Shown: positions 1,274 to 63,400 of the stretch, piece by piece | Layout of the letters: every line of letters starts with the position of its first letter | Position numbering within the stretch: position 1 is the stretch's first letter | Virus record (IMG/VR): IMGVR_UViG_3300002026_000005 | DNA length: 64,000 nt | Direction: 5' to 3' (one strand) | Source of the DNA: a virus | Translations under genes and position numbers: made by a program | Notes under the pieces: generated by a model | Databases searched by the model: none | Seen by the model: the letters and a program-made list of their open reading frames with translations, nothing else | Told to the model about the DNA's origin: nothing

Positions 1274-1637
1274 AACGAACTGCAACAAACAGCTCCACTA
1301 GTGAAGAGATGTGGATAGAGATAGAACGACTCAGAAAAGAGTTAGAGGAAGTCAACAAGAGATTGGAGGAAGAGATTCGGAAGGGACTCGAGGAGGAGGG
1401 AAATCCTCCAGAAAAAGACTATGGACAACAAAGGCTGCTGTCCCTTCATGAAAATATCAACGTCTTCTGGGACTCCAGAACCTGACAGTGTCCAGTCTGT
1501 CTCCAGATGAACCCTCTCACTAAGTGTGACTGTTGCACGAGAGCCGAAGCCGATGGAAAAAAGCTCGAAGAAATCAGAGAGAAATTGTTGAAGGGCCAGA
1601 GAGCAGGAGGGACAGAAGCCTTTAGGATGCCTTTGTA
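1267..1637 (+). CDS. coiled-coil protein with a C-terminal zinc ribbon reached through an in-frame TGA
   Basis: The first ATG is at 1267, in the frame of ORF 1252..1485. After TGA 1483-1485 the frame stays open and encodes QCPVCLQMNPLTKCDCC... up to TAG 1635-1637. Confidence 0.5.
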
Positions 1638-1902
1638 GACTTAGAAGACTATTGAAGACCTTGAAGTAAGGCTCCAGTTGAATCGTTCGTTACACTCACG
1701 ATTAAACAGAGAGAGTTTAAGTAAGTCTCATTATCTGATTGCTCATCAAGAAGTCTAAGCAGGTAAGATTCATCAGCAAGTAATCAGGTAAGCAAGAAAG
1801 ACTCATTAGAAGTTTAAAGGCAGTTGTCCTCATCTCATCTCTCATTAATGTAGAAAAAGATGTTGAAGTCTGCAAATCAAATGATACACAAATACTTAGG
1901 TT
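1638..1902. other. 265-nt non-coding region with degenerate short repeats, upstream of the terminase genes
   Basis: TAA or TAG stops occur in all three plus frames. GTAAG recurs 4 times, with a near-variant GTAAT, and (C)TCAT(T/C)A about 8 times between 1715 and 1850. A small hairpin aatcgt/acgatt sits near 1681-1708. This is the largest non-coding gap in the plus arm. Confidence 0.4.
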
Positions 1903-2469
1903 ATGGCGAAGATGATTTCTAGCTGAGATTACACCAAAGACTGCTTACAACTCAATGATAAACTGAGAGTTACGGGCACGCAGATTTTGGGTCAAAAAAA
2001 TAGTAGTATTTCAAAAAAAAGTAAAAAAAAAGCAGAAACCTACGATTATGCCAGCCTTTTGGAGTATCCTGATGGATGGAGTTGGTGGGGGTTTGTGTTC
2101 TATGCCGACCCAGAGTCTCCTTTTTCTGGTTGGACTGAGTCTGATAGGGCTAAGTTCGTGAAGGAAACCTTCGGGTTTGAGGTGAGGAAGTTTGGTGCCG
2201 AGATAGAGGCTTATGAGAAGTTTACGGACACTCCTGCAAAGAGGCACTATAGGGCATGGGGTAAGAAGATGGATGAAAGGACAGAGTTCCTCGAGACCGT
2301 GAAGTATGACGTGAACACTTGGGAGATGATAGACAAGATGGCGGCGGCCACTGTGAAGCTCTACTCTGACTTGGAGAGGATAAAGAAGATCGTGGATGAT
2401 GCCGGAGATTCTGGTAGGGTAATGGGTGACAGGACAGAGTCTCTGTCTGAGAGTGGGTTGATTGACTAA
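1903..2469 (+). CDS. hypothetical protein in the small-terminase position
   Basis: The standard ORF 1987..2469 has only a TTG start. An ATG at 1903 lies in the same frame, separated by a single TGA (1924-1926) and no TAA or TAG. The gene sits directly upstream of TerL. No motif was recognised. Confidence 0.45.
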
Positions 2470-2480: not shown

Positions 2481-4580
2481 ATGGCTCTACTGAGTAAGGA
2501 TGTTTGGAAGATGAGGCCGCCTGACTTGATTCCGATGACGGCTGACTACATCAGCTTCTGGAGACTATTCAAGGACAGGTGCAAGTTCGGCATGTGGTGT
2601 TCAGGCATTTGGATGCCAGGAGAGTTGTTCTTCTACTACAATGCCTGGAAGATAAAGCTGAAGAAACCGATCTATGACAAGTTCGGTAAGATAAAGGGGT
2701 TCACCAATAATGAGTACATCGAGTACCCGGATCTGAGGGATATCGAGTGGGAGTACTTCTACACCTACTCAGAGTCGAGAGGTTTCAGTCGCTTCGAGAA
2801 CAATACTGAGGAGGAGCTTGCTGTGATGACTCCACGAGAAATCATGAGGAAACATTGGGACAGAGAGATGGGTAGGCCGATGTATGAGAACCCAGCCAAG
2901 AACATTATCCTGATAGCAGGAAGAGGTGCCGGCAAGAGCTATTGGGCTTCGTGTGTGATTGGGTATGAGTTCCTGATACAGAGAGACAAGGGTATCGCTA
3001 ACACGATCACTGTTGGTGCCGGAGACTCGAAGTTCTCCAAGACTCTTCTCCAGAAGGTGAAGTTGGGTCTGAATGAACTGCCTGGATCAGTCGTGTTCGG
3101 AGGCATCTCGTATCCGAGTCCGATCTCGAAACAGTACAAGGGAAGCTTCGAGGTAAATGAAGGTATTCTTGCGTCCTACGTGAAATACATTGCTGGAGCA
3201 AAGAAAGAGATTGGTGACGGCTCCAGTATCGGCCACATAACCTTCAAAGACAATGACTTTGCTGCAAATGGAAGACGTTCCTGTCTTCTCGTGTTCGAGG
3301 AGATCGGTCTGTTCCCGAACTTCCGTGCAAGTTGAGACTCGTCTATCGAGGTTATCCGTACTGGCACATACCAGTTTGGGACGATGTTCGGACTCGGAAC
3401 AGGTGGAGACATGGAGAAAGGTTCGGTTGACGTTGCCGACATGTTCTATTCGACTGATGCCTACAACCTCGTGTCATTCGAAGACATCTGGGAAAGAAAG
3501 GGCCGGCTGGGACTGTTCGTGCCGGGTTATATGGGTCTGAATGAACACAAGAACGAGAGAGGGGAGACAGATGTAGAGGCTTCCATCAAGAGTCTTACTG
3601 ATGCTAGGGAGAAACTCATTGTAGACAAGGCAGCAAAGACGACGTTGGAGCAAGAGATAATGTATAGACCCCTGAAGCCGAGTGAGGCCTTCATGAAGTC
3701 GAGTGGAAACATTTTTCCCCGTATGCAGCTCCAGGAGCAGCTCACCTACATATCGAACAATAAGGACGTGGAACAGATGTGCCAGGTTGGTCAGTTCGTG
3801 CACGATCAGGACGGAAACCTGAAGTGGGTACAGACATCCCAGAACAGATACATCAGACAGTTTCCCCTGAAAGACAAGAAGAATGCGGATGCCGACATAG
3901 CTATCTGGGAGCATCCTGTGGACAATCCTCCACATGGACTCTACATAGCCGGATGTGACCCCTACGACCACGACAAGTCAGAGACAGGATCACTCGGAAG
4001 CATCTTCATCTACAAGAGATTCAATGGGTTTGATGGAACCTACAACATGATTGTTGCCGAATATAGTGCCCGTCCAGAGAGAGCCGACACCTACTACGAG
4101 AACCTGAAGAACCTCCTCATATACTACAACGCCCGTTGTCTCTATGAGAATGAGAGGAAGGGTCTTCACCAGCACCTTGTATCAAAGGGTCAAGACTGGT
4201 TGTTGGTAGACCAACCAGACATCGTGAAAGACATAGTCAAGAACACATCAGTAGACAGAGAGAAGGGTATCCACATGGTAACCCAGATAAAGGACTGGGG
4301 AGAACGGTCTATAAGAGACTGGTTGACAGAGGAATACTCACCAGGAAAGATGAATCTGAACCGGATATTCAGTCAGGCTTTGTTATCAGAGTTATTGTTG
4401 TATGAAGATGACGGAAACTATGACAGAGTGATGGCTCTGATGTGTGTCATCATCCTAGATAAACAGATGTTCAAGGTGAGAGTGAAGGAAAAAGAGACCG
4501 AATCACGTAAGATAGAGTGGAAAGACCTCGATTTCGGAGGAAAAGTCGGATTCAACTACGCCTGGAGTGGCTATAGTTAG
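2481..4580 (+). CDS. terL: terminase large subunit, with in-frame TGA at 3333-3335
   Basis: ORFs 2481..3335 and 3384..4580 share a frame, and the 48-nt gap between them has no TAA or TAG. A Walker A-like motif (IAGRGAGKS) and a Walker B-like motif (CLLVFEEIG) lie before the TGA. The RNase-H-like nuclease half (IAGCDPYDHD, YENERKG) lies after it. The gene ends in TAG. Confidence 0.9.
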
Positions 4581-4958: not shown

Positions 4959-7613
4959 ATGGATGCAACGATAACAAGGGACGCGGTCTTTCCTCCACAG
5001 AAACTGCCGGCTTCTAAGAAGAACAAGGAGTGGAAGGATAGGTGTGTCGATGCTCTCATAGGAAGATGGGGTAGTTCGAGAGGTATGCAGAACATTGATA
5101 GGAAGAAGATCAACTATGACCTCTACAACTCCATCTTTTCTGAGGATGACTTGAGGTATGTGGTGAATCCGTTCAATGTTGACTCGGGTTTTCCGGCGAG
5201 GCCACAGAATTTCAACATTATTAGACCAAAGGTAAACCTCTTGCTTGGAGAGGAGACAAAGAGGCCCTGGAACTTCAAGGTGTTACGTACTAGTGACGAG
5301 GCTAAGTCGAAGGTTGTGGAGAGAAAGAAGGAGATGTTGTTCCAGTGGGTTGTCCAGAGGCTTCAGGAGCTTAATGGGGAACAGCCTGATCAGAAGACTT
5401 CTCCAAAAGAGATAGAGGACTACATCTCTAAGGACTATATAGACGTTGCTGAGCATGTCGCCTACAACGGTTTGAAGTATTTGGAACACAAGCTCAAGAT
5501 AAAGTTCGAATTTGATAGGGGTTGGAAGGATGCCCTTATAGCTGGGGAAGAAGTTTACTTCGTGGGCCAGAGAAATGGGGATCCGTTCCTAGAGAGAGTG
5601 AATCCTTTGTACCTGTACTATGACTCAGACCCCGACTTGATGAACATCGAGGACGGAGATTGGGTAGTTAGGAAGATGCACATGACGCCGTCCTCTATCT
5701 ACGACAAGTTCTATGACATAATTGAGTCGAAGGATCTTGATGATATTCTTCATGCCTCAATAGGGAACACGATCAACAGCAAGATAGGTTATGAGAGAGT
5801 TGTCTGGAAGGACAGGATAAAGTCTGATGCCTACGGCAAGGCAAGTTTGGATGACTTCAATGCGATGAACAATACTGGTTATGGTTACATAACGGTTTGA
5901 CACGTGTGTTGGAAGTCGTTCAAGAAGGTCGGATTCCTGACAACACCAGATGGGGCAACCGACATGGTTGATGAGACCTACAAGGTTCAGGAAGGTGATC
6001 AGATAGAGTGGGATTGGCTGATAGAGACATGGGAAGGATATAGGATAGGTCAAGACAAGTATGTTGGAGTAAGACCGATACCGTACCAGAACTTCAACCC
6101 AGATCATCCGAACTACAAGAAACTTCCCTACGTTGGGAGTCTGTACTCGAACACGAACTCGAGGGTTCAGAGTTTGGTAGACATAATGAAGCCTCTTCAG
6201 TACATGTACATCATATTGTGGTACAGGTTGGAGTTGGCTATTGCGAGAGACAAGGGTAAGGTTCCTGTTATGGATATTACCCAGATACCGAAGTCGATGG
6301 GACTCGATGTGAAGCACTGGATGCACACACTTAGCTCTCTAGGAATAATGTTCGTAAACCCCTATGAGGAAGGAATCTCGGACGACGTTGTTAGGGCCGG
6401 AAAGCCTTCGACCTTCAACCAGTTCCAGGCACTCGACTTGAGTATGTCTGACGTGATCCTCCAATACATCCAACTCTTGGACAAGGTAGACATGATGGCT
6501 GCAGAGTTGACCGGAATCACTCCCCAAAGAATGGGAAGTATCCAGAACGATGAGCTTGTGGGTAATGTCCAGAGAAGCGTGACTCAGTCGAGCTACGTTA
6601 CGGAAGAGCTCTACATCATCCATAATGATGTGAAGAGAAGAGTGTTGGAGAATCTTCTGAATATAAGCAAGTGGTGTTGGGGTAACAGCAAGAAGAAGTA
6701 TGTCGACTTCATCATGGATGACATGAGTAGGAGTCTGATCGAGATAGACCAAGACTTCCTGAACTCTGACTATGATATTTTCGTAGTCGATTCGAGTAAG
6801 GAGGCCTCAAAGATAGAGTCCGTAAGACAGTTGATGCAGCCTGCACTTCAGGCTGGAGCAAGTCTGAACGAGGCGGTGCAACTTCTTATCAGTGATAACC
6901 TGAGTGATATCAGTGATAAGCTGAAACAGATAGACCTGAAGAAGGAACAGATGATGCAACAACAACAGCAGCAGGAGCAACAGATGCAACAGATGCAGAT
7001 GCAGTCTCAGCAGCAGATGGTGCAACAGGAAAACCAGTTCAAGGACATGATCAACCAGAGAGACAATGAGACCAAGATCCAGGTAGCCCAGATACAGGCC
7101 CAAGTTAGTTTGGAGGTTGCCTCAATGGCTAAGTCGGAAGTGGATGACACTCCAATAAAGATGGAAGAGTTGAGAGTGAAGGAGAGTCTCGAGAACAGGA
7201 AGATCGATACGAAAAAAGAGATAGATGAGAGAAAGCTCGATCTAGACACACGTAAGAATGCCGCCGACATCAACAAGATGATGGAAGAGATAGAGCAGAA
7301 GACTAAGGATTTGGAGATGAAGAAGAAGAGTCTGAAGGAGAAAGACAAGTCAGACAGAGAAGTTTCCAACAAGAAACTTAGTTTGGAGAAACAGAAGGCT
7401 GACAAAGACCTAAGTTTCAGAAGGGAAGAATCCAACAAGAAGTTGGAGCTCGAGAGACAGAAGTCTGAGAAACAGATGGAGCTCGATGAGGAATTGGCGA
7501 GAAGAGACATGGAACTCAAGGAAGAATTGAAGAGGAAAGAACTCGAATTCAAGAAGGCCCAATTGAGACAGCAAGCTAAACAGAAGGCAGCTGAACCAAC
7601 AAAGAAAAACTAG
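4959..7613 (+). CDS. portal protein, with in-frame TGA at 5898-5900
   Basis: ORFs 4959..5900 and 5904..7613 share a frame and are separated by TGA plus one codon, giving 884 codons. The call rests on the TerL, small gene, portal, scaffold-like, capsid order. The C-terminus has a long polyQ and K/E-rich tail. The gene ends in TAG. Confidence 0.8.
6948..7037 (+). repeat. CAG/CAA (polyQ with M) low-complexity repeat in the portal C-terminal extension
   Basis: Encodes QMMQQQQQQEQQMQQMQMQSQQQMVQQENQ. Confidence 0.8.
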
Positions 7614-11311: not shown

Positions 11312-12010
11312 ATGACTATACTTCAGATGCACCAGGCTTTTGATTTGATGCTAGACAAGACTGACTCTCTAAACTACCCTTCATTTCTTCCAGAGGAAAA
11401 AGACTTCTGGTTGAACATGTCACAGAGGCAGTTCGTGAAGACAAGGTACTCTGGCCTGAATCCACGCGGAAAGTGGGTCGAGTCTGAGCAGAAGAGGATA
11501 GAAGATCTTAGGGAGATTATTGAGACCGGGATGCTGACAAGCCCCACAAGAGGAGAGTTCAAGGAGAACTCGTTCCTATTTGATTTGAGTAGGCTCAATA
11601 ACTACTGATTGGTTCTTCATGATGAATGCAGCATTAGGGTTACTAAGGTTGGTTGTTACGAGGGCGGAGTGTCGAGAGTTGGAATCCAACAGATAGATAG
11701 CGACACCTACACGTTCCAGAAGCAGAATCCCCATTCTGACCACAACTTGTGGATTGGAACAGCAAAGCCATTGAGACTCTTCGTAGATCACTACGTCGAA
11801 CTCATTAGCGACGGAAACTATGATGTGGTTGAGTACTACATCAGATACATACGTAAACCTGTAGAGATGAATATATTCAAGAAAGTCAACTGTGAGTTAG
11901 GAGAGATTACTCATGACGAAATCGTTCGGAACGCTGTTCAGATGGCTCTAGAAAACATTGAAAGCCCAAGGCTGCAGTCCCATGCGATAGAAATTACACG
12001 ACAAGAATAA
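11312..12010 (+). CDS. virion-module hypothetical protein, with in-frame TGA at 11606-11608
   Basis: ORFs 11312..11608 and 11609..12010 are contiguous in one frame and separated only by a TGA. The gene ends in TAA. Confidence 0.55.
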
Positions 12011-45317: not shown

Positions 45318-45322
45318 CAATG

Positions 45323-45515: not shown

Positions 45516-45519
45516 GTTG

Positions 45520-45593: not shown

Positions 45594-45600
45594 CTATCCA

Positions 45601-45858: not shown

Positions 45859-45895
45859 TTCTTTTCCTCCAGTTTGATTTATTACTGATTTTTCT

Positions 45896-46138: not shown

Positions 46139-46193
46139 TTTGTTTGATTTTTTGTTTGTTTTGTTTTATTTATTCTTACTTGATTACACCTGT

Positions 46194-46278
46194 TGGCGGA
46201 AGGTGAGGGGATCGAACCCCCGGACCGAACCCGGCCACAGCTTAGCAAGCTGCTGCATTACCACTCTGCCAACCTTCC
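46194..46278 (-). tRNA. tRNA-Ser (anticodon GCT), type II with a long variable arm and encoded CCA
   Basis: Acceptor GGAAGGT/ACCTTCC with discriminator G and encoded CCA. Anticodon stem GCAGC/GCTGT, loop TTGCTAA. Variable arm GGCCG-GGTT-CGGTC, T loop TTCGATC. Confidence 0.85.
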
Positions 46279-46297
46279 TAACTTCCTTTGTCCTTCG

Positions 46298-46370
46298 TAG
46301 TCCTCCCGGGATTCGAACCCAGAACGAACACCTTAGAAGGGTGTTGCTCTTCCATTTGAGCTAGAGAACT
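46298..46370 (-). tRNA. tRNA-Arg (anticodon TCT)
   Basis: Acceptor AGTTCTC/GAGGACT, D arm GCTC-AAATGGAA-GAGC, anticodon stem ACACC/GGTGT, loop CTTCTAA, T arm CTGGG-TTCGAAT-CCCGG. Confidence 0.85.
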
Positions 46371-46389
46371 ATTTTTCCAATACTGCTTA

Positions 46390-47091: not shown

Positions 47092-47145
47092 TTGATTTCT
47101 TTTTGTTTTGATTGATTTTATTTTCCTACTTTAAAAATATTTTTG

Positions 47146-47217
47146 TCGTCCCTCAGGGAGTCGAACCCCAAACGGCTGGGCCAGATCCAGCTGTGTTACC
47201 AATTACACCAAGAGACA
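47146..47217 (-). tRNA. tRNA-Gln (anticodon CTG)
   Basis: Acceptor TGTCTCT/AGGGACG with a weak U1-G72 pair, D arm GTGT-AATTGGTA-ACAC, anticodon stem GCTGG/CCAGC, loop ATCTGGC, T loop TTCGACT. Confidence 0.8.
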
Positions 47218-48781: not shown

Positions 48782-49012
48782 CTTATTTCATGTAGCAATC
48801 TCGTTCTCTTTTGAGTAAAGTTTTCTCATCTCATCCAAGAATAGATATGTTGCCACGTTCACTTCCCTTTCGGAGAAACCAGACTCTTTAGCGTGCTCCA
48901 TGAAATCCTTGTAAGAATATTCGTTTCCGATCGATGTAAAGTATCCTACGGAGAATTTTCTTATCTCATCAAGTCTACTATCCTTCTTAGGCTGCTGTGC
49001 CTCCTTCTGGTT

Positions 49013-52000: not shown

Positions 52001-55000
52001 CCTCTTATCGAGATGGTTTATTTCGGCCCTGTCTCCGAGAAGGAACTCATCGAATCCCACAACGGTCTCTCCTCTTATGGCTCCGATCTTCTGTAAGCCA
52101 GATATGAGAGAAGACTTGATGGAAGAACTCGAGTTACTCAGCCTCTGGGAAAGTTCCTCAACAGACATCGACTTAGATGGCCATCTGGAGAAATGTTCTG
52201 TTTCGGCATAGGTTATTTCTCCCATACCCACAACAGCCTTTCGGATCCATTTGGTGCGGGTGTTCGTGAACATCCTGTTGTCACTCACATTCTCTTCCGA
52301 AACCATTCCTTCAGAATCGATTTTTCCCTCAAAGATTTCCCTGATGGATGGTTGAGCCACGAAGAACGACACCGTCTCTAAGTCGATTCCCATCATCAGC
52401 ATCGCCACAATCGTGTTGATACTCTTCTTGTTCCATCCCAACGGGATTGGCTGCTTGATGATATCGAAGAAGTTCGCAGGAAGTTTTGCCAACACCTGGG
52501 TAATGGTAAGACCCTTGTCCATACCTTCTGCAGAACCAAACAAGATTTCTCCGTTCAGGCCCTCATTCCAACCCAAGTGCTTGTGTTTCACGATGACACC
52601 AGTCTCTTCTCCCTTTCCGTTTAGAACAATCTCTACTGCCTTTCCGAATGTCTTGAGAAGGTTTTCCTTCTCAGAGATATCGTAGTAGACAGGAACTTCT
52701 TTGAAGGCTGTTGCCCTGATCTTCTGGAAGATATGGAGCGCGGCCAAGGACTTTGCTCCGATACCTTTCAGAGTCACACCATTCACGGCAGCCTCTCTGA
52801 ACAGGAATTGACCCATAACTGAAGTCGGAACGATATCTTTCTCGTCTATCTTGTAGAGAGCCGAGATGATGTCCTTTATCCTAGTTATCTCCTTGAAAGA
52901 AGCCGGGTCAGTCATTTCCTTGTGGGAATCCTTGTGCTTCAGAATAGAGGAGAAGATATCCACGATCTTGTTCTGTTCAGCCATGAAGAACTTCCTTTCC
53001 AATAGGGAGAGTTCTTTCTTCTCCTTCTCTTCAAGAACGTCTTTCTCTAGCAGTTGGGCGTAACGGAAGTCTTCTTCTTCTGTCATTCGTAGTAACTTAA
53101 CCTTGTCTTTCATGGACTCGGACATTTCTTCCTCAGTCATTTCTTCGTCCGAAAACAGCATCGTTCTCAGATCCATTCCATTGTCCTTCATCAGGTTGTA
53201 GTACATAAAAAAGTACTTGTCTCCGTCGAAATCGAGACCCGAAACTCCCTGTATCTCATGGGGTCCGACTACTACTCCCCTGTAGACATCTGGAAGGAAT
53301 CCGACTATCTTGTAACGGATGGTGGAGTACTTTGCCTCAGTCGGGATCCTGGCACAAATTCCTGACAAAACCTCATCGCTGAGCTCGTCTATGCTGAACC
53401 TGTTCAGGATTCCTTGTGGACGAGCCACAAGGATTTCGACCTCAGTAACTTCCCCATTCTCCAATTTGGAGAACTGGAGTCTTCCTGGTGCCTTCTTCGA
53501 GCTCCATTCGATTCCCCCAACATTCTTGTCCCAAACGTAACCTTCTGGCTTCTTGAAGCCTAGGGCCGAAACGTTCACGGCAGAGCCTCCAGGAGTACTC
53601 TCTTTCTGAACCGAGTTCCACATGGATGCGAGCATCGATTCGAATTGGTAGGCGAGACCCGGCACGTCGAGGAACATCTTCTCAACAAGCTCAATAGAGT
53701 TTGACGGGATCCGTCCAGAGTTCCGGATCTGGTCTATTACTGTTTGGTACAGTTCTAGTCCTGACTGCTTCAGCTCGATCTCGGTAGAAATCTTCTCGGC
53801 AATGTTGAACATGGTTTTCTCATAGAGTTTCATCAGGTCCGAACCCTTCATCGTACTTCCTCCAACCTCATACTCGGCCTCCAAATTCATGTTGGAGAAG
53901 ATGAGTTTCCTCAGCTGGGTTAGAGCCGAGGCATCATCGTCCTTGAAGTGGTCTGGAAAATCCTGTTGGGTTCCGAGTTTCTCTATTGGTAACTCCCTTA
54001 CCATACTCTTGTCGAACTTGGTTTCGTCTACAGTCTCATCAGAGTTGAAAATATTCATCACTGAAGTCATTCCGACCTTGAAGGCTGATGGTGGTACCGC
54101 CATATCTACTTCGTTCTCTTCCATAAACTTCCTGAGCTTCTCTAGTTCCGGCAAGGAACTCGTGATGGCTTTCGAGAGTATGAAGAATCCGGCCTTGATC
54201 TGGTTAGCACTATCGAACACGACCTGATCTCCATCAGCTGTGTCGTATGATATTTGTTGTCTATCGAAATAGAAGAGCTTCAGGACAGGAAAGAATTCCT
54301 TCTGGAGACTCTTATTCTCACTATTGAATAGGGTTCCATTGTCTGCCGCATCCAGAGCTTTCTCTAGACTCTCAGTGAGTTGGTTACGGCTACGGAAGTA
54401 GTCCTTCGCAAACTTTACTGATACGAATACCTGACCATTGTTTACCTCTGCATTTCCCTCTACCTCAACATCATTCGTCTGGATAACTCTGAAGTTCGGT
54501 CTGTCCCACAAGTGACGTAGAGCAGGAGACACCATTTGTTTGGCTCTCTTGTTTGTCTCCAACATACTCTTGTAGAGATAGATGTCTCCATTGAGCTCCC
54601 TAAACTGGGTGCTGTAGGCGAGATGGGAATTGATGACGAAGCTGTAGATGAATTCTTCAGGAGTGATGTTTCTCTCCAAGAAGTTTCCATTGTCTCCATT
54701 GATGTTTGTCTTGACGACATTATCCAAGAAGGTTCTGTACAGTTTTCCGGCTTCGGTCTTCGTCTTCTGTTTCTTGAAGTCGGCGAGGAATATCTTCGAC
54801 ATACTTTCGACATCCTTCTTGATAAAGTCGGCAATCAACTTCTCTATCCTTTGGTATGACATCGACTGGGGCATCTGTCTCAATTCCTCCTCAGTAACAT
54901 TACTATTACCGACCTCATTGTAGACATCGAAAAAGGCATCCTTCATGAAGATTCCCCTGCTATGGAGACTCTTGATGTCCGACACTGTTCTCCCATCAAC

Positions 55001-57697: not shown

Positions 57698-57718
57698 TTG
57701 TTTGATTGTTAGGTTTGT

Positions 57719-58477
57719 TCAGGCACGCTTATTTCCAAGCATGCTTCTGATTGTTGTTATTAGGTTCTCGAAAAATGTCCACACCGATTCTGGTATGAAC
57801 GAAGGTCGTCTGTAATACTTCACACTGACGTCCTCATACATGTCCGCTAATCTTTCTTCTAGCAAGATCTCTCTCGCCTCATCCAACTCCACTCCACTCA
57901 TCTTCATCTGGGAAGACAGTTCGTCTTCACCGATCTTGAACATGGCTTTCGCCTCCTTCAGGATCTTTTCTCTTGTTTTCGCATCCAAACTCCAGAAGAT
58001 TAGGTGAAACACTTCGTGTCTCAGAACCTTCTTGTTTGCACCCTGCGATAGGTGTATCATCCCGTTTGCCATGTAACCCCACAGCTTACGGCCTTTCTTC
58101 TTTATTATTCCTTCATGAAAACTAACAAGGTCCTCGTCTCCGAGAAGCCTATCTATCTCCTCAATAACTTCTTCATCACTCTCTATACTATTTCCAAGAT
58201 GTCTCGAGTCTTCCTCGAAAGGTTTGGTTCTAAATATATCCTCTACGTCCCTAAGTAAACTTTCTTGATCATCTTTCGGATCCTTAACGGTCTTCCCGGC
58301 CTCAACTATTGGAGCTGTCTCTATCGAGTCTGGTTTCTTTGCCCTACTTACTCTCATCTTCTTCACGAGCAACTTCATCCTGCTCTCTGGGGAGTCCTCG
58401 AAATGGGTCAAGATCTTTCCTTTCGCATCCCGAACACTTCCGACGTCTGTGGTCAGACCAAAGGTCTCAACCAACAT
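57719..58477 (-). CDS. zincin-like HExxH metallopeptidase module, in frame with both flanking ORFs
   Basis: HEVFH lies at 58004-58018 and is followed by EERLADMYED. The module is joined upstream through TGA 58571-58573 plus 31 open codons. It is joined downstream through TGA 57719-57721 plus 7 codons to the polymerase ATG. Confidence 0.6.
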   Translation of the reverse strand: MLVETFGLTTDVGSVRDAKGKILTHFEDSPESRMKLLVKKMRVSRAKKPDSIETAPIVEAGKTVKDPKDDQESLLRDVEDIFRTKPFEEDSRHLGNSIESDEEVIEEIDRLLGDEDLVSFHEGIIKKKGRKLWGYMANGMIHLSQGANKKVLRHEVFHLIFWSLDAKTREKILKEAKAMFKIGEDELSSQMKMSGVELDEAREILLEERLADMYEDVSVKYYRRPSFIPESVWTFFENLITTIRSMLGNKRA

Positions 58478-58570
58478 CTCTTTGTAGCTGCCGTATTCCT
58501 TACCGACTCTATCTACACTCAGATCCTTTCCGATCCTGTCCCCGTGTCTTGCCGACTTACCAAAACTGTT

Positions 58571-60397
58571 TCAGTTGATATTCCTCTTCATGTCTTTCCA
58601 CATGCCGTGGTTCAGAAGTAGTTGTTCCAACTCGACTTCAGTCATCTCGACAGACTTCTTCTCGAAAAGACTTCCTTTTACTACAGTCCCATCAGTGATG
58701 ACACCAACTGGAGTAGAAACGATCGAACTCATCTGGGAATCACTAAGTTTAGTTCCGTCTCCGAAGTCGGTTCTCATGTCGAAGTGATTGAAGACCGAAA
58801 CCTCATAGATGGTTCCACTCGCATCCGAACGGGGCACTATCTCCATCGTCTTGAAAACTCCTGCACTTCCCTTTGGTTTCCGAGTGGTTGTACTGGAGTC
58901 TCTCCACGTAATGGATACACGCCCACCTTCTTTCGATGCCCTAATAGTTTGAGTCATAAGGTTCTCGTCATACATCCCATTACTCCACTCAGTAGACCCG
59001 AGTATTCCACTCTCGACAAGACTCGCAACCTCATCAAGTGTCGTGTTACAATACTTGATACCAGTGTCTTCACTCTTGTAGGCCTTATCCATCTTGATTG
59101 GCCTATAGTCGTGACCCGTAACAAACACCGTATCGAGCACTAGTTTCAGGGCCTCAGGGTTCTGTCTCCCAACCAGACTTCCGAGAAGGAAGTTTATGGT
59201 GTTGTCGACATCCCTATTGTCTGTGAGTGTTCCTGTCTGGAGAGGGATGTACATGAATCTCTTCTCACCAGATTGGTCATTGTACTGGATGCGGGTGTAG
59301 ACTTTTCCCACTTCAAAAGAAGGAGCACCAGCCACATTGGTTCCGGACTCATCGACGCTCACGAACTGGTTGGAGGCCATAGACACGTGGAACAACTCTA
59401 CCTTGTCGGCTTTCTTCCCGAACGCCGTTGTCAACTTCATCTGACCCCAACCTGACTCGTCCTTTCCTCTAGCCTTTATCACCCTGCCTCCAGTTGTACC
59501 GAAAACTTCCACCGAGCTACGGAAGCCCTTGTCGACCTTGATGTTTTCGAAGAAGTCGTGGCGGAAAGCAGACAACTTCTCTCTCTCCCTATACATCTGG
59601 AGCAACCTCAGACTCTCTCTCCTAAGAAGGATTTCGTCGGCCTTTATGGCTCTCGAGATTTCTGGAGTAGAGACCCCTATAGACTTGTTGGCCTTGATTC
59701 GGGCACGGGCGTCTTCCATCGAGGAAGTTATCCTCCTCATGTAGTCGTCCGTAACCTTTATCGTCGGAATTCCGTACTCCACAACCTCCTTAGTGTTCCC
59801 ATCAATCACAACGGTTCTCTTTGAGGCAATTGGGAGGTTCTCGGCAGAGAAGTCATAGTGTTCCTTTCCGACAGCACTCTCATCGAAGACGAGGTCTATC
59901 TTGAAACTCTTGGCTGATACTGATGATGACGCCTCAAACATCTGTCTCTTGGCCGAGTCATCAGCAACCTCATAACCGAACTCGGTTCTGTTTAGTCCCG
60001 ACATCGGCTCTATGGGAAGAAGGATATCACTCAGCTTCTGTTCATTCTGGGGAATGGACTTGATGATGGACTCGGCCACGGCATCGAAGGTTCTGAGCTT
60101 CTGCTCCCCATTCTCGATGTGGGCGATTCCCTCTATAAAGTAGTCCTCAGCCTTCTGGTTTCTGTCCATAAGGAGACGAGCAATGTTCTCGTACTCAGTC
60201 TTCAGAGACGCCTTATTCCTCATGAAAGTCTCACCAGTAATACCGAGTTCCATAAGCAAACTCTTGATAGAGATCGTTATCGGAACCCCAGTAGACTTGG
60301 CACTTCTACGAGTCTGGTCAGTAAATTCTCTCTCCCCAATCCTCCTGATAGCTGCGGAGATCAACTCCATTGCCTCTTCGGCACAAATTCCTATCAT
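58571..60397 (-). CDS. N-terminal module of the polymerase polyprotein frame (608 aa, function unknown)
   Basis: The ATG at 60397 is bounded upstream by an in-frame TAG. The ORF ends at a TGA and continues in frame. Confidence 0.55.
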   Translation of the reverse strand: MIGICAEEAMELISAAIRRIGEREFTDQTRRSAKSTGVPITISIKSLLMELGITGETFMRNKASLKTEYENIARLLMDRNQKAEDYFIEGIAHIENGEQKLRTFDAVAESIIKSIPQNEQKLSDILLPIEPMSGLNRTEFGYEVADDSAKRQMFEASSSVSAKSFKIDLVFDESAVGKEHYDFSAENLPIASKRTVVIDGNTKEVVEYGIPTIKVTDDYMRRITSSMEDARARIKANKSIGVSTPEISRAIKADEILLRRESLRLLQMYREREKLSAFRHDFFENIKVDKGFRSSVEVFGTTGGRVIKARGKDESGWGQMKLTTAFGKKADKVELFHVSMASNQFVSVDESGTNVAGAPSFEVGKVYTRIQYNDQSGEKRFMYIPLQTGTLTDNRDVDNTINFLLGSLVGRQNPEALKLVLDTVFVTGHDYRPIKMDKAYKSEDTGIKYCNTTLDEVASLVESGILGSTEWSNGMYDENLMTQTIRASKEGGRVSITWRDSSTTTRKPKGSAGVFKTMEIVPRSDASGTIYEVSVFNHFDMRTDFGDGTKLSDSQMSSIVSTPVGVITDGTVVKGSLFEKKSVEMTEVELEQLLLNHGMWKDMKRNIN

Positions 60398-60465
60398 CTG
60401 TTTTCTATTAAAATTGTTCTATATTGTTTCCCATGTCTTTACTTCTATCATTAGTGTATGGCTTA

Positions 60466-63400
60466 CTAGCAATTCCTGATGTTCGAGAACAGGCCGTTGC
60501 CGGCGTCTTCATTGTTGTTCTGGAGCATCTCTATCAGGTCTGATGGGTACAGGAAGGAACTCTTCTTCAGACTCTTGTTTATCATCGTTACCAACTCTTC
60601 CTCTGTTGTCTTGCTGCCTATTTCCATCTTTACTTTCTTCCCGGTTACTCCCATAATCGAGAAGAAGAATCTTCCTCCTTCATCGTGAATGAGCTTCCTC
60701 AAGTAGAGTTCTTTCACGACTTTCCCCACAAGCTCATTCTCGAACGGAACAACCTCATTCACGTCTAGGTTCTCTGAGGGTTCAGATGCCTCGTTAGATT
60801 TCCTCTGGTTCAGGTCGTTCTTGTAACGTGCTGTGTACAACCCCAGTTTCAACATTGCTGCCTCATCCAGGATCTTGTTTCCGAACCTCATCAGGAGCTC
60901 CAAGTCGTTCTGGACTCTCTCACTCAGGAGGTTCAGGTCTCCGTACTCATCCAAGCTGGTTTTGTTCTTAGCTGTCTTGGCAAGGAAGTCCTCAAACCTC
61001 TTATTAAACCAGGTCAAAGCATCCGAGAAGATCCTTCTCTCTCCTTCAGTCAGACTATTGACGATACCAAGGTTCCCGACTACAGTCTCTCTCACAGCAA
61101 TGGACATCTTACGAGACACGTTCTTCGGATCAAACTCACCAGTCTCCTCTGGCTCTCTTGTGTTTTGGTTCCCACTCTGACTATCGTTACCGAGAGAGTT
61201 GTAGTAATCCTCCTGCTCCTGTCTCTGTTGTTCTTCCGAACTTCCAGATGTCGCATCAGGATCTACTCCAAACCCTTCGTTCACTCCACTACTTCCCTCA
61301 ACGTCATCAGTCTGAGACTGGTTCTGGACAGGTGCCGGCTGTTGCTGATTCAGGTCATTCAGGTTCTGTTCCTGAGTGAGACCCACTCCGCTATTACTGC
61401 CACTATTCCTATTGGCATCAACGGCTGCCGTCCTCTCCTTACCTGACTTGATCTCTTCGATGGCCTCATCTATTGTCGTGATTACGTCGTCCCTATCTAG
61501 GGAATGGTTCCAGTTCTTCTCGAAGTAGGCCTTTGTCCTCTTTCCGAGTTTGAACGGATTCCCAAGCAGAAGCTCTGCCGCCTTCGATACGCTGTTGCCG
61601 ACTTTAGCCAACTTTGATTTCTCTCTGTTCAGACTCAACAACTTCTTCTCCTCCGGATCCTTCGTCTGTCTCCAAGCCTTGTCGAAACTCACTTCTTCCT
61701 CGTTTATCTCCTTGCTATCCTGGAGCTCCTTCAGTCTATCCTTCTTCATCTGTTCGAGAGTAGACAGTTTCTTCTCCGTGTCTTCCTTCGAGTCCAGTAT
61801 GGCCTTGACATTGGCTTTGTCTTCCTTCTTTCTGTCCAGCCTGAATTTGTTCCAGTTCTTTCTCTTTTCCCGAAGGATCTCTCTCGGATTCGAGTGGAGA
61901 CTCATCAGTCTCTGGTGGTTGCTGGCATACTCAGAGGTAGACTCATTCAGCTTTCCGATAGAAGAGAGATAGTCCTGGAACTTTTGGGCATCATGGATAC
62001 TCTTTATCTGGTTCGGATCCTTCAGCATCGCCTTCAGGTTCGGGTCAACCGTTTTGTCTTTCTCAAGACGACCCCAGGCTTCCGTCCTCTCCTTCTCTTT
62101 TCTCTTGATGGATTCCCTGTTCAGCCTGATATTGTTTCTGATACTCAGCTTCTCCTCACGGGAAATCTTCCTCAAACCTTTCTTGTCTAACATAAGGAGA
62201 GTTCTCATCGTCTCATTCTGAATCATTTCCGTCTCTATCTGGGCGTTCTTCTTGATGTAGTCTTTCGAGTTCTGGTCAAGCTGTTTTCCGCTGTTATCCA
62301 CAATGGTCTTCATGTACTCGGCCTCAGCCTTGTTCATGTTGGATTCATTCTCTCTCACCTGCTTCAGGATCTTGTCCATCTTGTAGGCTCCCTGAAGACG
62401 CTCCTTGAAGACAACGGCTTTCTCGAGTTCCGACAACTTCCTGGTGGAAGCATCTGTCTCTATCTGGTTCCAGACAGCTCGGGCATTCTTTAGCCTCGAA
62501 ATCTCTTCCCCGAACTCTTTCTTCCCAATAGTGACTTTCTTTCCGTCTACTTGGGTCTCGACCTCTTTCTCCTTCTCGAGCATCCCTATTCGGGCATCAA
62601 CTCTCCCATTCTGGATGGCATCATAGTAGGAAGAGATGCGGGCGTCATCTTGACCTGTTTCCGTCATGTGTTTAGCGAGACCCTGGAGATTCTTTTTCTC
62701 CCTGATCTCATTCTTTAAGCCCTTTATTTCACTGTAGAGACCCGGGACGTTCATTGGGTTGAAGACACCCATAATCATACCGGCCCTCACTGAGTTCCCG
62801 AACTCATTTGAAACAAGTCCGTTTGTGTCTCCTATTCCTGTCATCGCCTTTGCTACTGTTCCGTAGTCATTGAAGAGATTCTTCGCGTTCTTTATAGTGA
62901 ACTCGTTCAGTCCGACTCCGTCCTTTCCATACTTCTCATCTCTCTCTCCCGGAACATTCGGCACATATCATCCGTTCTTGTTCTTCTTCCAGAGTGTTCC
63001 CTCCAGTTGGTTGTTGGCTCTCTGTCCCGCAACGTCCTGAACACCTTCTTCAACTCCTTCCATGATGGAACCGATCATCTGTTTCATGAGGAAACTCGAT
63101 ATCTTTCCGGCATTCGTGTTTCCGAGCGTCCAGGGCATCATCCCCATTCCACTCTGAGCATAGTCACCCCACTGGAGAGCCATGTTCTCGGCACGAAGGT
63201 CGTTCATTCCTTTTGAGGCCTCTAGTCTTATGTAGTCATCTATCTCGGGTGGAATCTCTGCCTCTGGAGACAGACCGTTCCTGGCTCTGTAACCGTCCTG
63301 AAACTGTTCCACTCTCTCCTTGTAGGCTCCACCAACTTCGGCATTCGTCTCCCTCTCTCTGGCATACCTGTCAGCCGCGAAACGGACTCCTCCAGACAAG

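What the first reader, a model, noticed from the sequence alone, without database searches (positions are those of the whole stretch)
1483..62970. In-frame TGA splits essential and large genes throughout: phage-type TGA reassignment, with TAA and TAG kept as stops
Every coding-frame ORF that ends in TGA continues in the same frame, with no TAA or TAG, into the next ORF.

Plus-strand TGAs are at 1483, 1924, 3333 (TerL), 5898 (portal), 11606, 14954 (collagen fibre), 20734, 21144, 21984, 26386, 32216, 33761 and 36923. Minus-strand TGAs, given as plus-strand coordinates of the codon, are at 42046-48, 42774-76, 42855-57, 43104-06, 45168-70, 48788-90, 49013-15, 57719-21, 58571-73 and 62968-70.

By chance only one third of adjacent genes would share a frame. 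Open gaps of 144, 153 and 231 nt would also not be expected. The TerL Walker motifs and its nuclease half sit on opposite sides of one TGA.

All unambiguous gene ends use TAA or TAG. TGG still encodes nearly all Trp, so TGA is a rare sense codon (about 0.1% of codons), usually present once per gene.

Stop-codon recoding has been described in crAss-like and other gut phages. What is specific here is its extent and its presence in both arms.
Basis: partly seen in the sequence, partly recalled or inferred. Interest (0 to 1): 0.8.

Follow-up and report, generated by a model that had tools for sequence, protein, structure and literature searches.

The report
Phage reads TGA as tryptophan
This is part of a crAss-like gut-type phage genome that uses the stop codon TGA as a rare tryptophan codon, a phenomenon already known in this group; the transfer RNA that appears to decode it, just outside the window, has an unusual extra arm that copies the tryptophan anticodon loop.

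Summary
All 23 TGAs exist at the stated coordinates. In-frame continuation after TGA is far beyond chance: 15 of 17 TGA-ended coding-frame ORFs stay open for at least 50 codons, against 11 of 41 TAA/TAG-ended ORFs (p=2e-5).

The window is 64 kb of a 93.75-kb circular Crassvirales genome, with portal identity of at most 56% to any relative. TGA aligns with conserved Trp in TerL (59 of 61 homologues), in portal (W or Y) and in the muzzle protein. Pfam or homologue matches run across the TGA in portal, muzzle and the giant virion RNA polymerase.

All 40 confident window genes end in TAA or TAG. TGA is about 0.14% of codons, or about 10% of Trp codons. Four listed sites lie near possible starts and are ambiguous, and a few TGAs were missed.

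This kind of recoding is already described for crAss-like phages (Yutin 2021, Borges 2021). Its density here is low, not high.

Outside the window the genome has one tRNA(UCA). It sits between a TGA-poor early block and the TGA-bearing rest. It is Trp-like (A1-U72, G73) and carries an extra hairpin with loop CUCCAAA, the tRNA-Trp anticodon loop. Thirty-three of 36 long phage tRNA(UCA) share a UCCAA loop. I found no published description of this.

The parts
805..1140 (+). Small gene with TGAs at 1078 and 1120 near its 3' end. It is either read through to TAA 1138-1140 or is the only gene that effectively ends at TGA.
   Evidence: ENA gene-1080
1252..1638 (+). Small gene with in-frame TGA 1483-1485. 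Under code 11 it was called as 1252-1485.
   Evidence: weakly positive coding score on both sides
1903..2469 (+). Gene with TGA 1924-1926 at codon 8 if ATG 1903 is the start. Ambiguous site.
2481..4580 (+). Terminase large subunit, 699 aa, with TGA 3333-3335 at codon 285. Walker A is at 2919-2939 and Walker B at 3285-3302, both upstream of the TGA.
   Evidence: The TGA aligns with Trp in 59 of 61 homologues and with Trp in cr125_1. Motifs.
4959..7613 (+). Portal protein, 884 aa, with TGA 5898-5900 at codon 314.
   Evidence: The P22_portal profile is split across the TGA. Aligned residue: Trp 41, Tyr 34.
11312..12010 (+). Structural-module gene with TGA 11606-11608 at codon 99.
   Evidence: Homologues align across the site, with Trp in 13 of them, including several of the best-scoring hits, and L/M/V/F in others.
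14624..16888 (+). Fibre protein with a collagen-like GXY run (aa 184-240, nt 15173-15343). TGA 14954-14956 is at codon 111, followed by a 144-nt stretch with no start codon.
20356..20943 (+). Gene with TGA 20734-20736 at codon 127.
20946..21224 (+). Gene with TGA 21144-21146 at codon 67.
21603..22295 (+). Virion structural protein, homologous to cr125_1 gp028, with TGA 21984-21986 at codon 128.
   Evidence: The cr125_1 homologue aligns over residues 1-222, across the site. The aligned residue is Ala, in a weak alignment.
23698..27564 (+). Muzzle protein, 1288 aa, with TGA 26386-26388 at codon 897, followed by a 153-nt stretch with no start codon.
   Evidence: The crAss_MUZ profile lies on both sides of the TGA. 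The TGA aligns with Trp in cr125_1 and in crAss001 gp44, PDB 7QOK.
31103..33187 (+). 694-aa gene with TGA 32216-32218 at codon 372.
33611..39448 (+). 1945-aa gene with TGAs 33761-33763 (codon 51) and 36923-36925 (codon 1105).
41851..42084 (-). Small gene with TGA 42046-42048 at codon 13, just downstream of two tRNA genes. Ambiguous site.
42471..43130 (-). 219-codon ORF with TGAs at 43104 (codon 9, ambiguous), 42855 and 42774. Two further TGAs (42528, 42501) lie in its 3' overlap with the next gene.
44091..45248 (-). AAA ATPase. TGA 45168-45170 lies 6 codons upstream of ATG 45149, and homology starts after it. Ambiguous site.
47930..60397 (-). Giant 4155-aa virion RNA polymerase-type protein. 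HEVFH is at 58004-58018 and DFDGD at 53219-53233. In-frame TGAs are at 58571, 57719, 49013 and 48788.
   Evidence: Homologues of 2.4-4.2 kaa carry both regions in one chain, and their alignments cross TGA 57719. The 74-codon stretch 49012-48791 has no start codon in its first 15 codons and scores as coding. There is a weak hit to the cr125_1 4502-aa protein.
60466..64000 (-). 1205-aa gene that starts at 64083, outside the window. TGA 62968-62970 is at codon 372.
   Evidence: Strong coding score on both sides. The full gene is seen in L088/L095.
42123..47217 (-). Eight tRNA genes in clusters: Arg-CCU, Met, Lys-CUU, Cys, Ile, Ser-GCU, Arg-UCU and Gln-CUG. None reads UGA.

Best explanation
The window is two thirds of a 93,753-bp circular genome of a divergent crAss-like phage (Crassvirales, nearest Suoliviridae). 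In it UGA is not a terminator but a rare tryptophan codon, and every gene ends in UAA or UAG.

Shown:
- Conserved single proteins (TerL, portal, muzzle, a structural protein, the giant virion RNA polymerase) run across in-frame TGAs.
- Where the position is conserved, homologues have Trp.

Shown, outside the window:
- The genome encodes 19 tRNAs. Exactly one has anticodon UCA, and there is no tRNA-Trp(CCA).
- That tRNA lies on the minus strand about 15.7 kb beyond the window's right end (ENA ERZ2286684 NODE_1, positions 18616-18711).
- It sits at the boundary between a block of about 13.5 kb at the head of the minus arm, whose confident genes hold at most one TGA, and the rest of the genome. 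Replication, virion RNA polymerase and structural genes all carry TGAs.

Inferred:
- Early genes are translated with the host's standard code.
- Once the tRNA is made, it competes with release factor 2, and the TGA-containing genes can be completed. This is the gating model of Borges et al.

Shown:
- The tRNA is 96 nt long, with A1-U72 and G73 (bacterial Trp identity elements) and C2-G71 (an antideterminant against SerRS in E. coli).
- Beside the UCA anticodon arm, in the variable-arm position, it has an 8-bp hairpin closed by the loop CUCCAAA. That is the anticodon loop of tRNA-Trp.
- The same design recurs in dozens of phage tRNA(UCA), with compensatory changes in the extra stem and an invariant UCCAA loop.

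Inferred, not tested:
- The extra arm arose by duplication of the Trp anticodon arm.
- It keeps the tRNA recognisable to the host TrpRS after C34 became U.
For: TGA is a sense codon:
- Searches give the frame continuity (p=2e-5).
- the portal and muzzle Pfam profiles are split by the TGA.
- Trp at the TerL, portal and muzzle sites.
- giant homologues span TGA 57719.
- the DnaB_C and AAA_24 domains span TGAs outside the window.
- no TGA stop is needed, and in-frame TGA occurs 26 times against 625 and 812 off-frame.

The sequence is identical in independent assemblies from ENA (two samples), Logan, IMG/VR and NCBI.

Genome and tRNA:
- circular assembly.
- a single tRNA(UCA). The general Rfam tRNA model is the only listed hit (51 bits); one lower-scoring same-clan match was suppressed. 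The cloverleaf is 7/5.
- Trp-codon choice upstream of the tRNA is 1 TGA to 36 TGG, against 14 to 31 just downstream (p=7e-4).

tRNA family:
- 36 distinct long tRNA(UCA), of which 33 have UCCAA in the extra loop and 27 start with A1. Only 3 short Trp-like tRNA(UCA) were found.
- covariation. 90.5% of cells are paired against 70% in shuffles, and the core pairs of the extra stem show 4-5 pair types.
- a co-resident canonical tRNA-Trp has the same arm, GGUCUCCAAAACC.
- the two halves of a suppressor each hit only annotated tRNA-Trp genes in GenBank phages.

Literature:
- PMC7886860 and bioRxiv 10.1101/2021.08.26.457843: TGA to Trp in crAss-like phages, and late-gene gating.
- PMC9976931: Trp identity rests on G73, the anticodon and the 1-72 pair; C2-G71 acts against SerRS.
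- bioRxiv 10.1101/2025.10.30.685624: 13 of 13 phage tRNA(UCA) inserted Trp in E. coli extract.
Against: - There are no protein data, so the inserted amino acid is inferred from alignments at only 3-4 well-conserved sites. At TGA 57719 homologues have I, V or T, and at 21984 Ala.
- Seventeen of the 23 sites rest on frame continuity and codon usage alone, and four of those are ambiguous.
- This particular tRNA has a Ser-like D arm and a long variable arm, which in bacteria is the main SerRS determinant.
- The host and its TrpRS are unknown.
- The TGA-poor early block is only modestly significant against the genome average (p=0.07). It also contains uncalled stretches.
- The geometry of a variable-arm hairpin does not obviously place its loop where TrpRS binds an anticodon.
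- Most of the UCCAA-loop tRNAs first collected came from a pattern that required that loop. The later unbiased scans remove this bias but still fix the T loop.
Confidence: 0.85

Rival explanations
1. Suppression is incomplete, so TGA remains a leaky stop. Some sites are real gene or module boundaries that yield both a short product and a read-through fusion. This is not exclusive of the main explanation.
For: - Some TGAs are followed within 2-7 codons by an ATG in an A-rich, spacer-like context: 48788 (TGA AAT AAG ATG) and 57719.
- All four TGAs of the 4155-codon ORF lie outside its central 2,900 codons, which hold 23 of the 35 TGG (p=0.02).
- Gene 805-1080 ends at TGA with only a short extension.
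- RF2 competes with tRNA(UCA) in E. coli (bioRxiv 10.1101/2025.10.30.685624).
Against: - Homologues run continuously across 57719, with conserved residues on both sides.
- TerL, portal and muzzle cannot work as halves.
- The 74-codon segment after 49013 has no start codon in its first 15 codons.
- The positional test is weak and was made after seeing the data.
Confidence: 0.25
2. The tRNA(UCA) is charged by seryl-tRNA synthetase, so TGA encodes serine.
For: - This tRNA has a class-II-type D arm (GCCGAGUGGU..AAGGC), an 8-bp variable arm and G73.
Against: - TGA sits at Trp positions that are nearly invariant: TerL 59 of 61, and muzzle in two distant phages.
- C2-G71 is an antideterminant against SerRS in E. 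coli (PMC9976931).
- A1-U72 is invariant in the 18 aligned suppressors.
- Many family members have a Trp-type class-I D arm, and their halves hit only tRNA-Trp genes.
- The extra loop is sequence-conserved, which SerRS recognition would not require.
Confidence: 0.06
3. The phage simply follows a host that uses genetic code 4 or 25 (Mycoplasmatota, Absconditabacteria or Gracilibacteria).
For: Such phages exist (bioRxiv 10.1101/2021.08.26.457843). The host of this phage was not identified here.
Against: - The genome is a Crassvirales member, a group described as infecting Bacteroidota (PMC7886860).
- Ninety per cent of Trp codons are TGG.
- The phage carries its own tRNA(UCA) and has a TGA-poor early block.
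- The aligned residue is Trp, not Gly.
- The closest relatives recode TAG instead, and carry tRNA(CUA).
Confidence: 0.04
4. The TGAs are selenocysteine codons. ARAGORN labels the tRNA 'SeC'.
For: The anticodon is UCA, the tRNA is 96 nt long, and it has G73.
Against: - The cloverleaf is 7/5, not 8/5, and the D arm is an ordinary one.
- The general Rfam tRNA model outscores the other member of its clan.
- The sites align with Trp, not Cys.
- About 69 in-frame TGAs occur in all kinds of genes in the crude code-4 gene model.
- No SECIS element was looked for or seen.
Confidence: 0.01
5. The TGAs are assembly or sequencing errors, or the genes are pseudogenes in a defective phage.
For: None beyond the fragmented code-11 gene calls.
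Against: - The same TGAs occur in independent assemblies from different samples and pipelines.
- All are in frame.
- Trp positions are targeted.
- A matching tRNA is encoded.
Confidence: 0.01

Closest known systems
TGA-to-Trp ('code 4') recoding in crAss-like phages (Yutin et al. 2021, PMC7886860; Borges et al. 2021, bioRxiv 10.1101/2021.08.26.457843; Lera phage, PMC12386605)
   Same: - The phage belongs to the order Crassvirales.
- In-frame TGA occurs in TerL, portal, muzzle and the RNA polymerase.
- Trp stands at the aligned positions.
- The phage encodes a tRNA(UCA).
- TAA and TAG are kept as stops.
- An early block is compatible with the standard code.
   Different: - The lineage is very divergent: portal identity is at most 56% to anything in IMG/VR and 49% to any deposited genome.
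- Density is low, about 1.4 per 1000 codons.
- Recoding also covers replication genes (DnaB-like, AAA_24) and the virion RNA polymerase block, not only structural and lysis genes.
- The suppressor tRNA carries an extra Trp-anticodon-like arm that these papers do not mention.
TAG-to-Gln ('code 15') recoding in the nearest relatives (Suoliviridae such as cr125_1; validated by proteomics, PMC9523058)
   Same: The genome architecture and gene set are the same. A suppressor tRNA is encoded near the packaging genes or among the early genes. Recoded codons occur in the same structural genes.
   Different: - The relatives use a different stop codon and amino acid.
- Their suppressors are ordinary 72-78-nt tRNA-Gln-like molecules (U1-A72) with no extra arm.
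- Their density is much higher: 61 TAGs in the aligned parts of cr125_1.
Cellular code 4 (Mycoplasma, Spiroplasma, many mitochondria) with tRNA-Trp(UCA)
   Same: UGA is read as Trp by a tRNA with a U34-C35-A36 anticodon.
   Different: - In those systems the whole organism is recoded, RF2 is lost, and UGA is the major Trp codon.
- Their tRNA is a normal class-I tRNA.
- Here the code is switched within one infection cycle, in a host presumed to use the standard code.
Class-II tRNAs and tRNA-Sec / allo-tRNAs (Mukai et al. 2017, PMC5389517)
   Same: These tRNAs have a long variable arm, some have UCA anticodons, and they occur in phage tRNA arrays.
   Different: - Those are Ser, Sec, Cys or His systems with 8/4, 9/3 or 8/5 acceptor/T branches, and their arm sequence is not conserved.
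- Here the branch is 7/5, the acceptor identity is Trp-type, and the loop of the arm is a conserved copy of the Trp anticodon loop.
Programmed UGA read-through (Q-beta A1 protein, retroviral gag-pol)
   Same: An in-frame UGA is passed by a tRNA to give a longer protein.
   Different: Those are single sites, read at a low percentage by host tRNAs, where both products are needed. Here dozens of sites lie inside essential domains and a dedicated tRNA is encoded.

Membership tests
Crassvirales (crAss-like phage) | Signature proteins: crAss-type major capsid protein, portal, TerL, muzzle protein and giant virion RNA polymerase, in a conserved module order. | tested here: met
   - Pfam crAss_MUZ matches at E=1e-124, and P22_portal also matches.
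- Crass_capsid is recorded on the MCP gene.
- tblastn to 151 phage records returns crAss-like phages among the best hits, with identity up to 49%.
- The structural module is syntenic with cr125_1.
- A DFDGD motif and giant homologues are present.
Stop-codon-recoded phage, TGA to Trp | In-frame TGA inside conserved single-domain or single-chain genes. | tested here: met
   TerL, portal, gp11312, muzzle and the giant RNA polymerase in the window. DnaB_C and AAA_24 outside it.
Stop-codon-recoded phage, TGA to Trp | The recoded codon aligns with one amino acid (Trp) in homologues. | tested here: met
   - TerL: Trp in 59 of 61.
- Portal: Trp 41, Tyr 34.
- Muzzle: Trp in cr125_1 and in 7QOK.
- gp11312: Trp in 13 homologues, including several of the best-scoring hits.
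- Not conserved at 57719 (I/V/T) or at 21984 (Ala).
Stop-codon-recoded phage, TGA to Trp | TGA is not needed as a terminator; genes end in TAA or TAG. | tested here: met
   40 of 40 confident window genes (20 TAA, 20 TAG). Genome-wide: 64 TAG and 43 TAA. One borderline gene, 805-1080.
Stop-codon-recoded phage, TGA to Trp | A phage-encoded suppressor tRNA with anticodon UCA. The literature notes this is common but not universal. | tested here: met
   None in the window. One in the rest of the same genome, at L092:15381-15476.
Stop-codon-recoded phage, TGA to Trp | Recoding is confined to late (structural and lysis) genes, with early genes in the standard code. | tested here: inconclusive
   - A block of about 13.5 kb upstream of the tRNA has at most 1 TGA against 36 TGG.
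- Replication genes downstream of the tRNA are the most TGA-rich, at 14 TGA to 31 TGG.
- The timing of expression is unknown.
Stop-codon-recoded phage, TGA to Trp | Peptides that span the recoded codon and carry Trp. | not testable with these tools
   No proteomic data. Indirect support only: 13 of 13 phage tRNA(UCA) inserted Trp in E. coli extract (bioRxiv 10.1101/2025.10.30.685624).
Selenocysteine recoding | A tRNA-Sec with an 8/5 acceptor/T branch and a 6-bp D stem, SECIS elements, and sites that align with Cys. | tested here: not met
   The cloverleaf is 7/5 with a 3-4-bp D stem. The general tRNA model scores best. The sites align with Trp. SECIS elements were not searched for.
Code 25 (TGA to Gly) phages of Absconditabacteria or Gracilibacteria | TGA aligns with Gly, and the host uses code 25. 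| tested here: not met
   Gly does not appear among the aligned residues at any of the three sites tabulated. The host was not determined.
tRNA-Trp (bacterial identity set) | G73, an A1-U72 first pair, an anticodon C34-C35-A36, and a class-I body with a 4-5-nt variable loop. | tested here: inconclusive
   - G73 and A1-U72 are present in all 18 aligned suppressors.
- The anticodon is UCA: C35 and A36 are kept and C34 is lost.
- The variable region is a hairpin, not a short loop, and its loop reproduces U33-C34-C35-A36-A37.
- The halves are homologous to tRNA-Trp genes.
- Charging was not tested.

The most novel reading that the evidence does not exclude
Many phages that recode UGA to Trp, including this one, may use a previously undescribed 'two-armed' tRNA. 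It is a tRNA-Trp whose anticodon arm was duplicated in tandem. The copy in the anticodon position mutated to UCA and reads UGA. The copy in the variable-arm position keeps the CCA loop and serves as the identity signal for the host tryptophanyl-tRNA synthetase, or for a phage factor. This would uncouple codon reading from synthetase recognition.
Probability: 0.4. Interest if true: 0.85.

Novelty: new variant of a known kind. Interest (0 to 1): 0.55.

Why it matters
The finding as handed over is an already described phenomenon, TGA to Trp recoding in crAss-like phages. Its practical importance is for annotation. With the standard code, TerL, portal, muzzle and the virion RNA polymerase of this genome are all called as fragments, as they are in the public ENA and Logan gene calls.

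Two things go beyond a routine case:

1. The whole genome shows a very clean layout: a TGA-poor leader block, then the suppressor tRNA, then TGA-bearing replication, RNA polymerase and structural genes. This makes the 'code switch as timer' model directly testable in a lineage where middle genes are gated as well as late genes.

2. The decoder tRNA belongs to a widespread and apparently unremarked family with a second, Trp-anticodon-like arm. If that arm is what the synthetase reads, it would be a natural solution to a central problem of genetic-code change: how to alter an anticodon that is itself the synthetase's identity element. It would also be a ready-made scaffold for engineered UGA-decoding orthogonal tRNAs.

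Tried and rejected
- Pfam on the two TerL halves and on most large proteins gave nothing. PHROGs named only the exonuclease and the ATPase on the minus arm.
- The search for homologous proteins with the whole 4155-aa protein timed out. With residues around TGAs 58571 and 57719 it returned only the phage's own fragment. Homology at 58571, 49013, 48788, 62968, 14954, 32216, 33761 and 36923 therefore could not be tested.
The exact 283-aa inter-TGA segment was used instead.
- The 340-aa window-truncated protein is not on record.
- The Lera phage (PV725988) is not in the phage collection, so its tRNA(UCA) could not be compared.
- blastn of this phage's suppressor against GenBank phages found nothing.
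- Comparison with the phage's own class-II tRNAs (Ser-GCU, Leu-UAG, Tyr-GUA) and with all tRNAs in the related loci showed no close relative, so an origin from a resident tRNA-Ser was rejected.
- Selenocysteine, host code 4 or 25, and assembly error were considered and rejected (see rival explanations).
- A test for non-random placement of TGAs within genes gave only weak hints: p=0.02 for the giant ORF, and an excess near N-termini that is confounded by uncertain starts.
- Four literature searches for a two-armed or long-variable-arm Trp suppressor found no description (papers checked).

Full report
**1. The observation**

All 23 TGAs are at the stated coordinates. Each lies in a frame that has no TAA or TAG across it.

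I listed every table-11 ORF of at least 80 codons on the coding strand of each arm and measured how far the frame stays open after its stop.
- For the 17 coding-frame ORFs that end in TGA, the median is 360 codons.
- For the 41 ORFs that end in TAA or TAG, the median is 12 codons.
- The difference is significant (Mann-Whitney p=7e-6).
- Fifteen of 17 against 11 of 41 continue for at least 50 codons (Fisher p=2e-5).
- The TAA/TAG fraction is about the one third expected for neighbouring genes that share a frame by chance.

A codon-usage model trained on the long ORFs favours the same frame on both sides of the TGA at 19 of 23 sites.

In 40 confident genes that lie wholly in the window (18,654 codons):
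- TGA occurs 26 times in frame, against 625 and 812 times in the two other frames.
- TGG occurs 233 times.
- The stops are 20 TAA and 20 TAG.

- The open stretches of 144, 153 and 231 nt are there.
- The TerL Walker A and B motifs (2919-2939, 3285-3302) precede TGA 3333.
- The 14624-16888 protein has a run of 19 collagen-like GXY triplets.

**2. Qualifications**

Four listed sites lie 8 to 27 codons after the first possible start: 1924, 42046, 43104 and 45168. They may be upstream of the real start. For the ATPase gene, the homology to cr125_1 begins only after TGA 45168.

ORF 805-1080 ends in TGA 1078. It is open for only 19 more codons, which include a second TGA at 1120, before TAA.

The recoding is sparse, not extensive. 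The nearest annotated relative, cr125_1, has 61 in-frame TAGs in the stretches that align with this window alone.

**3. What the sequence is**

- The muzzle-protein family of crassviruses matches at E=1e-124.
- The portal matches the P22-portal profile.
- The best tblastn hits of the portal include Suoliviridae and other crAss-like phages, at up to 49% identity.
- In IMG/VR the closest portals are 56% identical, apart from one 4.6-kb fragment of the same phage.
- The structural module is syntenic with cr125_1.

The window is 100% identical to an ENA contig, ERZ2286684 NODE_1, 93,808 bp. That contig's ends overlap by 55 bp, so the genome is a 93,753-bp circle. Nearly identical pieces occur in a second ENA sample, a Logan assembly, IMG/VR and an NCBI WGS record. 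Sequencing error is therefore excluded.

**4. TGA is read, and read as Trp**

Single proteins run across the codon.
- The portal profile is split 66-182 and 267-589 by TGA 5898.
- The muzzle profile is split 2-545 and 1092-1206 by TGA 26386.

tblastn of read-through proteins against 79 related loci gave the following.
- TGA 3333 in TerL aligns with Trp in 59 of 61 homologues.
- TGA 5898 in portal aligns with Trp in 41 and Tyr in 34.
- TGA 11606 aligns with Trp in 13 homologues, including several of the best-scoring hits, and with L/M/V/F in most others.

TGA 26386 aligns with Trp in cr125_1 and in the solved muzzle protein gp44 of crAss001, 7QOK.

For the 4155-codon minus-strand ORF no close relatives exist. 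A full HMMER search with the 283-aa segment between TGAs 58571 and 57719 found 43 distant homologues. Nearly all are giants of 1.7 to 6 kaa in which this HExxH domain is internal. Eight of them, aligned locally, each carry both the HExxH region and the RNA polymerase region (our DFDGD, 53219-53233) in one chain. Seven of the eight HExxH-region alignments cross TGA 57719. There the aligned residue is I, V or T, so not every TGA sits at a conserved Trp.

The 74 codons between TGAs 49013 and 48788 score as coding and have no start codon in their first 15 codons.

In total, six of the 23 sites are confirmed by homology, thirteen by frame and codon usage, and four are ambiguous.

**5. The rest of the genome and the decoder**

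The window's eight tRNAs do not include a UGA reader. I recovered the remaining 29.7 kb through the public contig.

The genome has 19 tRNAs. There is no tRNA-Trp(CCA), and exactly one tRNA has anticodon UCA. It lies at genome position 79654-79749 on the minus strand (L092:15381-15476).

A crude code-4 gene model of the whole genome shows the following.
- The minus arm starts about 13.5 kb upstream of this tRNA.
- The 14 confident genes of that leader block contain 36 TGG and at most one TGA, and that one lies upstream of the start called in ENA.
- The block directly downstream holds replication genes and has 14 TGA to 31 TGG (Fisher p=7e-4; against the genome average p=0.07).
- The DnaB_C and AAA_24 domains there run across three and two TGAs respectively.

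The order along the genome is therefore: genes compatible with the standard code, then the suppressor tRNA, then everything else. This fits the published idea that recoding gates later genes (bioRxiv 10.1101/2021.08.26.457843). Here the gated set includes replication genes and the virion RNA polymerase block. In this phage that block is inverted onto the minus strand relative to cr125_1.

No release factor or TrpRS appears among the precomputed Pfam hits of the called genes, nor in my own scans.

**6. The tRNA**

ARAGORN calls it 'SeC' only because of the anticodon. The Rfam general tRNA model matches end to end and scores higher than the other member of its clan.

Its features are:
- a 7-bp acceptor stem with A1-U72 and C2-G71, and G73;
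- a D arm of the class-II type;
- an anticodon arm with loop CUUCAAA;
- in the variable position, an 8-bp stem closed by the 7-nt loop CUCCAAA;
- a normal T arm.

CUCCAAA is the anticodon loop of tRNA-Trp.

A metagenome scan with a pattern that fixed only the D arm and the UCA loop returned about ten more such tRNAs, in dense tRNA arrays. They have A1-U72, G73 and a variable-arm loop containing UCCAA.

Two IMG/VR scans fixed only the UCA loop and the T loop, with a long or a short spacer. Pooled with the earlier pattern scans, they gave the following.
- There were 36 distinct long tRNA(UCA).
- Thirty-three of those have UCCAA in the extra loop, and one more has ACCAG.
- Twenty-seven of the 36 start with A1.
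- There were only 17 short tRNA(UCA), of which three are Trp-like.

In an alignment of 18 members, the cloverleaf plus extra hairpin is supported by covariation.
- 90.5% of cells are paired, against 70% in shuffles.
- The core pairs of the extra stem show four to five different pair types.
- A1-U72 and G73 are invariant.

Where a canonical tRNA-Trp(CCA) lies in the same locus, its anticodon arm (GGUCUCCAAAACC) is the same 13-mer as the extra arm of the neighbouring suppressor.

blastn of such a suppressor against 50,697 GenBank phage records hits annotated tRNA-Trp genes, plus a few unannotated stretches, and only as two separate halves. The extra arm plus T arm plus 3' acceptor aligns to the anticodon-arm-to-3'-end part of tRNA-Trp. 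No record has the full-length molecule.

The simplest reading is a tandem duplication of the Trp anticodon arm.

[quoted passage not shown] C2-G71 is an antideterminant against SerRS (PMC9976931). I therefore infer that the extra arm preserves recognition by TrpRS after C34 became U. This step is untested, and the three-dimensional geometry is an open objection.

Some carrier contigs are clearly TGA-recoded: long-ORF cover rises from 0.22 to 0.92 in L126. Phage tRNA(UCA) tested in E. coli extract all inserted Trp (bioRxiv 10.1101/2025.10.30.685624). That paper does not mention an extra arm, and neither do the other papers I searched.

**7. Comparison with what is known, and verdict**

TGA to Trp and TAG to Gln recoding, mostly of late genes and often with phage suppressor tRNAs, was reported for 243 crAss-like phages (PMC7886860). 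It has since been extended (Borges et al.; Lera phage, PMC12386605).

This genome is a new and very divergent member. Its near relatives use TAG with ordinary tRNA-Gln-like suppressors.

It differs from the described cases in three ways:
- low codon density;
- inclusion of replication genes and the virion RNA polymerase in the recoded set;
- the architecture of its decoder tRNA.

Selenocysteine, a host with code 4 or 25, serine insertion and sequencing artefacts are unlikely, for the reasons given under the rival explanations. Partial read-through at boundary-like sites cannot be excluded.

The finding as handed over is of moderate interest. The two-armed suppressor tRNA, which lies outside the window but belongs to the same mechanism, is the part that deserves follow-up.

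Noticed in passing
Outside the window: L092:15381-15476 (+), which is ENA ERZ2286684 NODE_1 positions 18616-18711, about 15.7 kb beyond window position 64000 on the circular genome: The genome's only tRNA(UCA) is 96 nt long. It has A1-U72, C2-G71 and G73, and an extra 8-bp hairpin whose loop CUCCAAA equals the tRNA-Trp anticodon loop. It belongs to a family of at least 33 distinct phage tRNA(UCA) that share a UCCAA extra-arm loop.
   Followed up: yes
Whole genome. The leader block of the minus arm lies about 15.8-29.3 kb beyond the window's right end, equivalent to L092:1786-15322.: The roughly 13.5 kb transcribed before the tRNA(UCA) has 36 TGG and at most 1 TGA in confident genes. The replication genes right after the tRNA have 14 TGA to 31 TGG. 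No gene anywhere needs TGA as a stop.
   Followed up: partly
window 47930-64000 (-): The block of giant virion proteins is on the opposite strand to the structural genes, whereas in cr125_1 it is co-directional with them. It comprises a 4155-aa protein with HEVFH at 58004-58018 and DFDGD at 53219-53233, a 1205-aa protein, and a 673-aa protein just outside the window. The N-terminal 600 aa of the giant has no detectable homologue in 5.8 billion proteins.
   Followed up: partly
window 15173-15343 (+): A collagen-like run of 19 GXY triplets (GADGIDGVDG...GLRGQG) lies in the 754-aa fibre protein.
   Followed up: yes
window 1-415, and contig ends: The window starts in the divergent intergenic region between the two arms. 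An independent 8.9-kb ENA contig (L085) starts at exactly the same base. The 93.8-kb ENA contig has a 55-bp terminal overlap, which indicates a circular assembly of 93,753 bp.
   Followed up: partly
L081/L082 (cr125_1, NC_055900), and L035-L066 and L075: The closest relatives carry tRNA(CUA) of 72-78 nt. The nine printed begin with U1, the first base of the glutamine-identity U1-A72 pair, which suggests they are tRNA-Gln-like. cr125_1 has 61 in-frame TAGs and no TGA in the regions that align with the window. The choice of recoded stop codon has therefore switched between related lineages.
   Followed up: partly
window 1924, 41478, 42046, 43104, 45168; also several genes outside the window: Many TGAs lie within the first 10-30 codons of the longest possible ORF, and 22 of 43 genome-wide fall in the first quarter of the gene. 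This could be over-extended start calls, or a real preference for an early 'gate' codon.
   Followed up: no
window 57698-57721 and 48781-48790 (-): Two TGAs inside the giant ORF are followed within 2-7 codons by an ATG in an A-rich context that looks like a gene junction. All four TGAs of this ORF lie outside its central 2,900 codons (p=0.02). This may hint at dual short and fused products.
   Followed up: partly
L154, L177, L211, L149, L147, L137 (IMG/VR): A second group of long tRNA(UCA) starts with G1 (for example GCCCCAG...). They also carry an extra hairpin with a CCA-containing loop (AUCCAAU, or ACCAG in L149). This suggests the design arose or spread beyond the A1-U72 lineage.
   Followed up: no
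window 42123-47217 (-), and the rest of the genome: The genome has 19 tRNA genes in several clusters, 8 of them in the window, but no tRNA-Trp(CCA). Two tRNA-Phe(GAA) and two tRNA-Met(CAU) copies are present.
   Followed up: partly
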